Shown here piece after piece: positions 17,415 through 18,083 of a stretch of 64,000 nucleotides of DNA. The stretch lies in assembly GCF_058153355.1 (NCBI RefSeq), contig NZ_CM177019.1. One strand, given 5' to 3'. How positions within the stretch are numbered: the stretch's first letter is position 1; every line of letters starts with the position of its first letter. Below the pieces are notes generated by a model, which did not search any database, had not been told where the DNA came from, and was given only the letters and a program-made list of their open reading frames with translations. A program made the translations under genes and the position numbers.

Positions 17415-17962
17415 CTTTATCAATGACTTATCTCCTAACTTCCCGCCTTGCTTTTTCTTAACAGAACAATCGTAGAATATTCTTGAAGGTTTAGATCGTC
17501 ACTGTTTTCTGTTCGATACTGTGACATTCAGCACTTGATTAGCTATTGATCTGACATGAGGGTTTCGAGCGTAAATCTGCAGTTATTCAGTCGTTTTCTT
17601 TTCGGTCACCATTATTCTTTTAGACATTGATCCTACGAAGCTGCCGCAAAGTTGGTGGTGGGAACTGAAGTTGCGTAGAGAAGGGGGCAATAATTGAGCC
17701 AAAAAAGGAACGCGGCCGTCAGATTAAAGCCGCGGGACAAAGTCCATAATTTCCAAGAGTTGTTGAATTTCCCAGCTTTTTTGAAAGCCTTTGTATCATA
17801 CTAACAAGTAAAAAAGGTTTAAATACCAAAATTAACCTATATTTCTGGTTAGCTTTACCATGACAGATGACTTGCTCCTGGAGACATTGGCGCTACCAGT
17901 CTGTATTGGTGAGTTGTGTATTTATTGTTCGCCGTTTCCTCAGTTTTTTTCTACAGACATAA

Positions 17963-17996
17963 TAAAAAAGACACGTCTCAAGCATGAGCGTGTCTG
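17963..17996 (-). terminator. Rho-independent terminator, probably zinT
   Basis: Hairpin agacacg...cgtgtct followed by a T-run on the minus strand. Confidence 0.45.
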
Positions 17997-18083
17997 AGTT
18001 TGTCTTATTTATTTGTCTTGGTAAATTATTGTCGTTACTACCAGGCACTGTTCTGTTAAATAACTGAAGTCAGCGCAAAAAAA

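What the first reader, a model, noticed from the sequence alone, without database searches (positions are those of the whole stretch)
17415..18083. No ORF between the tRNA-Ser fragment and zinT where E. coli K-12 is recalled to carry yodB
About 670 bp of AT-rich sequence has no ORF of 60 codons or more on either strand. If my recollection of the K-12 order (zinT, yodB, serU) is right, the cytochrome b561-like gene yodB has been lost next to the prophage integration site. The region could alternatively hold an unannotated small RNA or degraded gene.
Basis: inference. Interest (0 to 1): 0.25.

Follow-up and report, generated by a model that had tools for sequence, protein, structure and literature searches.

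The report
Ordinary yodB-less serU–zinT intergenic spacer
The 669-base gene-free stretch is the normal spacer between the serU tRNA gene and zinT in the roughly 42% of E. coli genomes (and in E. albertii) that never carry yodB at this spot, so it is a common, already-noted gene-content variant and not damage caused by the neighbouring prophage.

Summary
Window 17415-18083 (669 bp, 38.9% GC) has no ORF of 60 codons or more, as 59% of shuffles also lack. K-12 does have zinT-yodB-serU. The interpretation does not hold. Against K-12, 17353-17861 and zinT align, but 222 bp (17862-18083) stand where K-12 has 995 bp carrying yodB.

This is a species-wide two-allele locus: 2304 of 5426 complete E. coli genomes have the short form and 3114 the yodB form. 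The short form occurs with an intact serU and no prophage, including the closest relative (gapless, 98.5%). A prophage end sharing this junction also abuts the yodB form. E. albertii has the short form, colinear across the junction, so it is probably ancestral.

The interval is non-coding. It holds:
- the 62-nt serU remnant (attR);
- 278 bp shared with serU-integrating lambdoid phages;
- a low-diversity 143-bp core with a minus-strand terminator;
- the allele-specific zinT 3' region with zinT's terminator hairpin, the only piece shared with the yodB allele and kept by compensatory changes.

There is no Rfam hit, no YodB remnant, and the longest allele-specific small ORFs are not conserved. An unannotated small RNA cannot be excluded. 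Interest is low.

The parts
1394..17352 (+). Context: right arm of a phiP27-like prophage (baseplate, tail and tail-fibre genes, IS66-family insertion, NEL-effector and methyltransferase cargo). It ends at the prophage/chromosome boundary 17352/17353.
   Evidence: PHROGs tail, baseplate and tail-fibre hits. 94.9% identity to phage phiP27 over window 1394-17114. Homology to the prophage-free relative starts exactly at 17353.
17353..17414 (+). 3' 62 nt (nt 29-90) of tRNA-Ser(CGA) serU. This is the chromosomal half of the attachment site (attR side). It is not a functional tRNA by itself.
   Evidence: Identical to nt 29-90 of the annotated 90-nt tRNA-Ser of Z0117EC0005 and aligned to K-12 serU. 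ARAGORN finds no tRNA. The only Rfam hits in the region are tRNA-arm look-alikes here.
17415..17692 (.). 278 bp directly downstream of serU. It is chromosomal in all E. coli and is also carried, together with the 62-nt tRNA piece, in the attP region of serU-integrating lambdoid phages. It is a locally hypervariable stretch.
   Evidence: Phages ev099, PhiR70_1 and mEp332 match window 17353-17692 at 95%, between tail-fibre-assembly and integrase genes. 17553-17695 is 90-95% identical to the window in 4633 genomes and has extra copies in about 550 genomes. A divergent patch with a 13-bp insertion occurs in two strains.
17696..17838 (.). Low-diversity 143-bp core shared by both alleles of all E. 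coli and annotated in none. It contains terminator T2, a promoter-like site on the minus strand (-35 at 17823-17818, -10 at 17800-17795) and a 36-codon TTG ORF on the plus strand (17694-17804). Most of it (17705-17811) is absent from E. albertii.
   Evidence: Present in 5417 of 5426 genomes, all at 95% or more, 3771 at 99% or more. Zero to two variable columns per 50 bp in 18 strains. Promoter-like site, at chance frequency. The ORF peptide is not in the 15-billion-protein collection and has no Pfam or NCBIfam hit. E. albertii gap.
17701..17734 (-). T2: intrinsic-terminator-like element on the zinT/yodB strand. It is a 7-bp G+C-rich stem (17734-17711, 10-nt loop) followed by TTCCTTTTTT (17710-17701). 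It probably ends yodB transcripts in the long allele and acts as a back-stop for zinT read-through toward serU in the short allele (inferred).
   Evidence: Own hairpin plus T-tract scan, dG -10.6 kcal/mol. Seen in the MFE fold. Invariant in 18 strains.
17862..18083 (.). Short-allele-specific 222 bp (the zinT 3' flank). K-12-type genomes have 995 bp with yodB in its place. Allele-linked substitutions already begin at about 17839.
   Evidence: BLAST against K-12. Single copy, same locus, in 2304 of 5426 genomes and never annotated. The complementary 995-bp segment is in 3114 genomes. Fixed long-allele differences at 17839-17855. Homologous in E. albertii.
17958..17995 (-). T1: zinT intrinsic terminator. 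It is an 11-bp interrupted stem-loop (17995-17969) followed by TTTTTTATTAT (17968-17958), about 90 nt after the zinT stop. It is possibly bidirectional.
   Evidence: Folds with dG -14.7 kcal/mol, z about -3. It is the only significant similarity between the 222-bp and 995-bp segments, at the same distance from the zinT stop (score 32 against shuffles 18.3 +/- 2.1, 0 of 200). 13 consensus pairs, 2 with compensatory double changes across short allele, long allele and E. albertii.
18084..18734 (-). zinT (216 aa), intact.
   Evidence: NCBIfam NF007639 equivalog, 427 bits against a cut-off of 300. Annotated as zinT in all matching genomes.

Best explanation
Window 17415-18083 is the ordinary non-coding spacer between the convergent genes serU (+) and zinT (-), in the yodB-less ('short') allele of a two-allele locus that segregates across E. 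coli. Nothing has been lost here because of the prophage. The prophage recombined inside serU at 17352/17353 and left everything to its right exactly as in non-lysogenic relatives. The spacer works mainly as a transcription-termination zone. zinT transcripts end at a conserved hairpin plus U-tract about 90 nt after the stop codon (T1). A second minus-strand terminator (T2) lies about 260 nt further on and would block read-through toward the tRNA gene. In the long allele T2 probably serves yodB. The first 278 bp after serU double as homology shared with the attP regions of serU-integrating lambdoid phages. This sharing could explain their high diversity (inferred, not tested). The short allele is probably the ancestral Escherichia arrangement. 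The 995-bp yodB segment is probably a replacement imported by recombination, with its ends at the zinT stop codon and near 17839-17861. The sequence comparisons, allele counts and hairpin conservation are shown. Termination in vivo and the direction of the evolutionary change are inferred.
For: 1. The comparison with K-12 shows a 222-bp versus 995-bp replacement, flanked by 94-95% identical sequence.
2. The short segment is in 2304 genomes and the long segment in 3114, which accounts for 5418 of 5426.
3. All ten prophage-free short-allele genomes inspected have an intact serU and nothing annotated between it and zinT. The spacer is 669 bp in eight of them, 668 bp in strain 52148 and about 626 bp in HS-02. 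2013C-4282 is also short-allele and prophage-free but carries a 13-bp insertion.
4. The closest relative, Z0117EC0005, aligns without gaps from 17353 to 20695 at 98.5% and has no prophage.
5. All four combinations of prophage and allele exist: TUM1880 has prophage plus yodB, and WP8-S18-ESBL-07 has prophage without yodB.
6. E. albertii has zinT, a 565-bp spacer and serU with no yodB. Its alignment to the window covers 18083-17957 and 17894-17812, so it crosses the junction.
7. No yodB lies within 6 kb of zinT in about 75 other enterobacterial species.
8. The terminators are supported.
9. Non-coding status: the ORF statistics equal chance. The 45-aa and 51-aa ORFs are broken by a start-codon loss, a 1-bp deletion and 32+12-bp deletions in other strains. 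No small-ORF peptide is on record or hits Pfam or NCBIfam. There is no Rfam family.
10. yodB presence or absence between E. coli ST410 sub-clones is already reported (PMC10786849), and serU is a known prophage site bordered by yodB (PMC9729726).
Against: - The polarity (short allele ancestral) rests on one named outgroup species plus one unnamed Escherichia genome that carries a further deletion. E. fergusonii and the cryptic clades were not recovered by the single genome-collection scan.
- The short allele keeps terminator T2, which looks 'made for' yodB. This could be read as a trace of a former yodB, although E. albertii lacks T2.
- Termination at T1 and T2 is predicted from sequence only.
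- The 143-bp core is more uniform than its flanks, which leaves room for an unrecognised function.
Confidence: 0.88

Rival explanations
1. yodB was deleted in this strain as a by-product of prophage integration, or of imprecise excision, at serU.
For: yodB is absent relative to K-12, and the interval abuts a prophage attR.
Against: The same yodB-less spacer, without indels in most of the strains inspected, occurs in prophage-free genomes, including the nearest relative. A prophage end sharing this junction sits next to an intact yodB in TUM1880. The allele is in 42% of genomes and in E. albertii. The 222 bp are not a subset of the K-12 sequence, so the difference is not a deletion.
Confidence: 0.02
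2. The interval encodes an unannotated small RNA on the zinT strand. One candidate is a roughly 90-nt transcript from the promoter-like site at 17823-17795 to terminator T2 (about 17788 to 17701). The other is a zinT 3'UTR-derived RNA ending at T1. This is compatible with the main explanation.
For: There is an orphan strong terminator T2 with a sigma-70-like site about 60 nt upstream. The 143-bp core is at least 99% identical in 3771 genomes while the adjacent 143 bp are mostly 90-95%. The T1 hairpin is the only element preserved between otherwise unalignable alleles, with compensatory changes.
Against: - No Rfam family matches.
- Promoter-like sites occur at chance frequency: 4 found, 4.6 expected.
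- The fold of the core is not better than shuffles, z -0.5.
- Most of the core is deleted in E. albertii, and the whole stretch is missing in Escherichia sp. MOD1-EC7003.
- The contrast in diversity may be largely explained by phage-att homology on one flank (inferred) and allele dimorphism on the other. The 0-2 mismatches in 143 bp are not far below this strain's usual 1-5% divergence.
- T2 has an obvious role as yodB or zinT terminator.
- Nothing is annotated here in K-12 RefSeq, and nothing was found in the papers searched.
Confidence: 0.1
3. The interval holds a small protein gene, for example the 36-codon TTG ORF at 17694-17804 (+), which has an AAGGGGG Shine-Dalgarno-like motif 6 nt upstream.
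For: The ORF lies in the low-diversity core. By my own codon reading of that alignment, not by a tool result, two of the three substitutions seen in it are synonymous.
Against: The peptide is absent from a collection of about 15 billion predicted proteins, although the DNA is in 5417 genomes. It has no Pfam or NCBIfam hit. The start codon is TTG. The ORF contains the T2 hairpin and is mostly deleted in E. albertii. Three substitutions give no statistical power. The other ORFs, of 45 and 51 aa, are disrupted in several strains.
Confidence: 0.03
4. The 222-bp allele-specific segment is the decayed remnant of a gene, either yodB or another.
For: It occupies the position of yodB and is AT-rich.
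Against: tblastn with YodB finds no similarity. There are stops in all frames and the ORF lengths are as in shuffles. The peptides hit nothing. Its only similarity to the yodB segment is the terminator hairpin, which lies upstream of yodB.
Confidence: 0.03

Closest known systems
E. coli K-12 MG1655 zinT-yodB-serU region (b1973-b1975, NC_000913.3 2041375-2043557)
   Same: Same gene neighbourhood (msrP-msrQ-zinT ... serU-mtfA-asnT). zinT is 94% identical. The 447 bp next to serU are 94.7% identical. The hairpin about 90 nt after the zinT stop and terminator T2 are both present.
   Different: K-12 has 995 bp with the 176-aa cytochrome b561 homologue yodB where the window has an unrelated 222 bp. 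The K-12 copy of the hairpin lacks a clean U-tract.
Short (yodB-less) allele of B2-type and other E. coli, e.g. ST131 ZH063, Nissle 1917, APEC O2:K1 strains, 2013C-4282, Z0117EC0005
   Same: Same 669-bp serU-zinT spacer, colinear, 93-100% identical, with nothing annotated in it.
   Different: Those genomes have an intact serU. The window has a prophage recombined into it, so only the last 62 nt of the tRNA adjoin the spacer.
yodB presence or absence between ST410 sub-clones B4/H24RxC and B5/H24RxC (PMC10786849)
   Same: It documents that yodB is a variable gene within E. coli and is used as a clone marker. The yodB-negative clone carries fyuA. fyuA belongs to the yersiniabactin island (from my own knowledge), which lies at asnT next to this locus in ZH063.
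   Different: That paper does not describe the spacer, the allele junctions or the terminators.
tRNA-gene prophage attachment sites with duplicated tRNA 3' ends (serU as an Stx1d-prophage site, PMC9729726)
   Same: The tRNA 3' portion is retained at the prophage-chromosome junction, and serU is an established integration target bordered by yodB or zinT.
   Different: The resident prophage here is phiP27-like in its tail arm. Its other end, and the reconstituted serU, lie outside the window.

Membership tests
Short (yodB-less) allele of the E. coli zinT-serU locus | Contiguous colinear alignment from serU through the spacer into zinT with other yodB-less genomes | tested here: met
   One ungapped or nearly ungapped alignment covers 17353-18800 with ZH063 (95.0%). 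17353-20695 aligns with Z0117EC0005 (98.5%, 0 gaps). 2279 genomes cover at least 80% of 17300-18200 in one place.
Short (yodB-less) allele of the E. coli zinT-serU locus | Presence of the allele-specific 222-bp segment and absence of the 995-bp yodB segment | tested here: met
   The 222 bp match 2304 genomes at 93-100%. No nucleotide or protein trace of yodB is present in the window.
yodB (cytochrome b561 homologue) gene or pseudogene | Detectable protein-level similarity to YodB in the interval | tested here: not met
   tblastn of K-12 YodB against the whole window, with no SEG filter and E up to 10, gives no hit in 17415-18083.
Intrinsic (Rho-independent) terminator | G+C-rich stem-loop immediately followed by a U-rich tract on the transcribed strand, downstream of a gene | tested here: met
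   T1 is the hairpin 17995-17969 (dG -14.7) followed by TTTTTTATTAT, 88 nt after the zinT stop. T2 is the hairpin 17734-17711 (dG -10.6) followed by TTCCTTTTTT. The built-in scan missed T1 and T2; the reason was not checked.
Intrinsic (Rho-independent) terminator | Structure conserved through compensatory substitutions | tested here: met
   For T1, 13 consensus pairs, 2 with changes on both sides (A-U/G-C), across six sequences from the short allele, long allele and E. albertii. The sample is small. T2 is invariant and therefore uninformative.
Intrinsic (Rho-independent) terminator | RNA 3' ends at the U-tract in vivo | not testable with these tools
   No transcript data are available.
Bacterial small regulatory RNA gene | Match to a described RNA family | tested here: not met
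   Rfam 15 cmscan of 17200-18900 at E up to 1 gives only tRNA-arm look-alikes inside the serU remnant.
Bacterial small regulatory RNA gene | Own promoter and terminator bounding a conserved, structured 50-300-nt unit | tested here: inconclusive
   Terminator T2 and a 9-of-12 promoter-like site exist, and the core is highly uniform. However, promoter-like sites are at chance density, the fold z-score is -0.5, and most of the unit is missing in E. albertii.
tRNA-Ser(CGA) serU | Complete cloverleaf of 90 nt | tested here: not met
   Only nt 29-90 are present at 17353-17414. ARAGORN reports no tRNA in the window.

The most novel reading that the evidence does not exclude
The uniform 143-bp core (17696-17838), present in 5417 of 5426 E. 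coli genomes and never annotated, together with its orphan minus-strand terminator T2, could be an E. coli-specific small RNA gene of about 90 nt lying between serU and zinT or yodB. Alternatively, the zinT terminator hairpin, kept intact in two otherwise unalignable alleles and in E. albertii, could mark a stable zinT 3'UTR-derived RNA linked to the zinc-starvation response.
Probability: 0.1. Interest if true: 0.3.

Novelty: already known. Interest (0 to 1): 0.07.

Why it matters
It matters little. The result removes a false lead: the absence of yodB here is a common haplotype, not prophage-inflicted gene loss. It also shows that K-12 is not a safe reference for what should be present at this locus, because 42% of complete E. 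coli genomes lack yodB there. Three minor points may be useful. The allele boundaries are precise: the zinT stop codon on one side and about 17839-17861 on the other. The terminator hairpin is the sole conserved element between the two alleles. The 278 bp after serU are shared with phage attP regions, which could explain local hypervariability.

Tried and rejected
- Sensitive local alignment of the 222-bp and 995-bp segments found only the hairpin, so a simple deletion or insertion is rejected.
- tblastn for YodB anywhere in the window found nothing.
- Rfam at permissive E-values found nothing beyond tRNA-like artefacts.
- The built-in promoter and terminator scan gave chance-level counts and missed both terminators. 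They were recovered with my own hairpin plus T-tract scan.
- For small-ORF conservation, exact look-up of seven peptides, Pfam on all seven and NCBIfam on the four longest all came back negative.
- I first read the 143-bp core as strongly constrained. I then down-weighted this after finding that the left flank is phage-att homology, the right flank is allele-specific, and this strain's usual divergence is only 1-5%.
- The hairpin is not a dispersed repeat in the window.
- Literature searches for yodB with zinT, serU or Hfq gave no description of the spacer. Supplement searches of two ribosome-profiling papers for K-12 coordinates 20430xx and 20431xx gave nothing, and one paper has no supplements held.
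- The single genome-collection scan returned only two non-coli Escherichia genomes, so the outgroup sampling is thin.

Full report
**Observation**

The interval runs from the end of the serU remnant to the zinT stop codon. The tRNA ends at 17414, and the 62 nt at 17353-17414 equal nt 29-90 of the 90-nt tRNA-Ser of a close relative. zinT occupies 18084-18734 on the minus strand and scores 427 bits against the NCBIfam ZinT equivalog. The interval is 669 bp at 38.9% GC, against 49.5% for the window. Its longest start-to-stop ORF is 51 aa. This is what chance gives: 59% of 2000 shuffles also lack an ORF of 60 aa or more. ARAGORN finds no intact tRNA in the window.

**What differs from K-12**

- Window 17353-17861 aligns to K-12 2043529-2043021 at 94.7%.
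- Window 18084 onward aligns to zinT, ending exactly at its stop codon.
- Between these, the window has 222 bp (17862-18083) where K-12 has 995 bp (2042026-2043020) containing yodB.
- The two segments are not nested, so this is a replacement and not a deletion.
- The only significant similarity between them is a 37-nt hairpin. It lies 87 nt (window) or 92 nt (K-12) after the zinT stop. The local alignment scores 32, against 18.3 +/- 2.1 for shuffles, with 0 of 200 shuffles reaching it.
- tblastn with YodB finds nothing in the window.

**Population picture**

The 222-bp segment is present once, at this locus, in 2304 of 5426 complete E. coli genomes and is never annotated. The 995-bp yodB segment is present in 3114. 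Together they account for 5418 genomes, so this is a two-allele locus.

Short-allele genomes with an intact serU and no prophage include ZH063 (ST131), APEC E18055, WG5, EcPF18, EC25, EE72d, 52148, HS-02 and Z0117EC0005. 2013C-4282 is also short-allele with an intact serU, but carries a 13-bp insertion in the spacer. In all of them nothing is annotated between serU and zinT. The spacer is 669 bp in eight of the ten inspected, 668 bp in 52148 and about 626 bp in HS-02.

Z0117EC0005 is the closest genome found. It aligns to window 17353-20695 without a single gap at 98.5%. The prophage therefore left the spacer untouched.

Conversely, TUM1880 has a prophage end sharing this junction sequence at serU, followed by yodB and zinT. 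WP8-S18-ESBL-07 has the prophage with the short allele. Prophage state and yodB state are therefore independent.

The literature already treats yodB as variable. In ST410 the B4/H24RxC clone is yodB-positive and B5/H24RxC is yodB-negative (PMC10786849). serU is a known prophage site bordered by yodB (PMC9729726). yodB also looks dispensable where it is present: it has an internal stop in strain 744, and an IS1 lies next to it in 2017.17.01CC.

**Polarity**

A scan of one genome per species with ZinT returned 80 loci.

- Outside E. coli, only E. albertii shares the msrPQ-zinT-serU-mtfA context. It has a 565-bp spacer and no yodB.
- Its spacer aligns to the window over 18083-17957 (as part of an 83.6% alignment that runs in from zinT) and 17894-17812 (75%). 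The second stretch crosses the 17861/17862 junction.
- An unnamed Escherichia genome (MOD1-EC7003) has a still shorter allele and no yodB.
- None of about 75 other enterobacterial species has yodB within 6 kb of zinT.
- Long-allele strains carry six fixed substitutions at 17839-17855 just inside the shared region. This is what the end of a recombination tract imported from a diverged donor would look like.
- zinT itself has two haplotypes differing by about 5-6%. They are uncoupled from the yodB state: 2017.17.01CC has the window-type zinT plus yodB.

I infer that the short allele is ancestral and that yodB was gained by replacement. This is inference from thin outgroup sampling.

**Anatomy and likely function of the spacer**

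1. 17353-17414 is the serU remnant and attR core.
2. 17415-17692 is a 278-bp stretch. Together with the tRNA piece, it is carried at 95% identity by the serU-integrating lambdoid phages ev099, PhiR70_1 and mEp332, between their tail-fibre-assembly and integrase genes.
   - The stretch 17553-17695 within it has extra copies in about 550 genomes and is only 90-95% identical to the window in most genomes.
   - It contains a divergent patch with a 13-bp insertion in two strains.
   - Sharing with phages could explain this diversity, but that link is my inference and was not tested.
3. 17696-17838 is a 143-bp core, at least 99% identical in 3771 genomes and at least 95% in all 5417 that have it.
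   - It contains a minus-strand terminator, T2: a 7-bp GC-rich stem at 17734-17711 (dG -10.6 kcal/mol) followed by TTCCTTTTTT.
4. 17862-18083 is the allele-specific zinT 3' flank.
   - It contains T1: a hairpin at 17995-17969 (dG -14.7 kcal/mol) followed by TTTTTTATTAT.
   - T1 is conserved in the short allele, the long allele and E. albertii. There are 13 consensus pairs, and 2 of them show compensatory double changes. Within the short allele, variation falls in the loop and the bulge.
   - In the K-12 copy the U-tract is degraded (GUAUAUUAAUAA). This would allow read-through into yodB, which would then end at T2 (inferred).

The spacer is thus best read as a convergent termination zone that protects serU from antisense transcription. 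This reading is predicted from sequence only.

Degraded gene: there is no YodB similarity, no Pfam or NCBIfam hit for the small-ORF peptides tested, and ORF lengths are as in shuffles.

Small protein:
- The 45-aa (+) ORF loses its ATG in E. albertii.
- It and the 51-aa (-) ORF are frame-shifted by a 1-bp deletion in strain 52148 and by 32+12-bp deletions in HS-02.
- The 36-codon TTG ORF in the core is intact everywhere. However, its peptide is absent from a collection of about 15 billion predicted proteins. It also contains the T2 hairpin and is mostly deleted in E. albertii.

Small RNA:
- No Rfam family matches.
- A sigma-70-like site (-35 at 17823, -10 at 17795, minus strand) lies about 60 nt upstream of T2. 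Such sites occur at chance density, 4 found against 4.6 expected.
- The fold of the core is unremarkable, z -0.5.
- The uniformity of the core looked striking against its flanks. The flanks, however, are unusually variable for identifiable or plausible reasons: shared phage homology on one side and allele dimorphism plus a divergent zinT-hprS haplotype on the other. Elsewhere the strain is 95-99% identical to most E. coli. Zero to two differences in 143 bp is therefore only mildly low.
- I leave an unannotated sRNA at about 10%.

**Comparison, novelty and verdict**

The interval is a member of the already widespread yodB-less allele. yodB variability and serU prophage insertion are both documented. 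Nothing here is new in kind. Interest is low, at about 0.07. The most novel reading still open is an sRNA in the conserved core or at the zinT 3' end, with probability about 0.1.

Noticed in passing
window 14053-15696 (-) and 16012-16680 (-): Two cargo genes sit on the opposite strand just inside the prophage's attR end. One is a 547-aa protein with N-terminal T3SS-type leucine-rich repeats and a C-terminal NEL E3-ubiquitin-ligase domain (PF14496, E 1.4e-76), which is the architecture of an IpaH/SspH-type effector. The other is a 222-aa class I SAM-methyltransferase-fold protein. Neither hits PADLOC defence models.
   Followed up: partly
window 1394-17114: The prophage arm is about 95% identical, over 45% of the query, to the baseplate, tail and tail-fibre end of Stx2e phage phiP27. 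It is interrupted by an IS66-family transposase gene at 9022-10593 (-). An IS4 copy (99.8%) lies at 1-1386.
   Followed up: partly
window 18084-24000: The zinT-msrQP-hiuH-hprRS block is a divergent haplotype. It is 90-95% identical to 5345 E. coli genomes but 98.5% to a group of 77 records, whereas the fli region (40000-47000) is 95-99% identical to nearly all. The zinT divergence is concentrated in its first 400 bp or so and is uncoupled from yodB presence.
   Followed up: partly
window 17353-17692; L099 2501-2840: The lambdoid phages ev099, PhiR70_1 and mEp332 carry not only the 62-nt serU 3' end but also the next 278 bp of 'chromosomal' sequence at 95% identity, in their attP region. This is an unusually long shared att homology, and it ends 3 bp before the low-diversity core begins.
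   Followed up: partly
L005 6649-6816 (Escherichia sp. MOD1-EC7003): This genome has a third allele. The zinT stop is joined, 4 bp later, to the equivalent of window 17559. The whole of 17560-18081, including both terminators and the core, is missing. Homology then ends inside the last 15 nt of serU, and there is no tRNA within 5.4 kb.
   Followed up: no
window 18092-18094 (zinT codon 214): The window's ZinT ends ...EEMMPH, where all 17 other Escherichia sequences compared have ...EEMMSH. This is a private C-to-T-site difference at zinT nt 643.
   Followed up: no
L004 (2013C-4282) and L003 (ZH063) annotation tables: RefSeq locus-tag numbering skips one tag between tRNA-Ser and zinT in two short-allele genomes (RS02400 to RS02410, and RS11020 to RS11010). 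This suggests that a feature once called in the spacer was later withdrawn.
   Followed up: no
L093 2243-2379 (E. coli HS): In strain HS the serU position is annotated as a 137-nt 'tRNA-OTHER' instead of a 90-nt tRNA-Ser, next to a hypothetical gene. This is probably another element integrated in serU.
   Followed up: no
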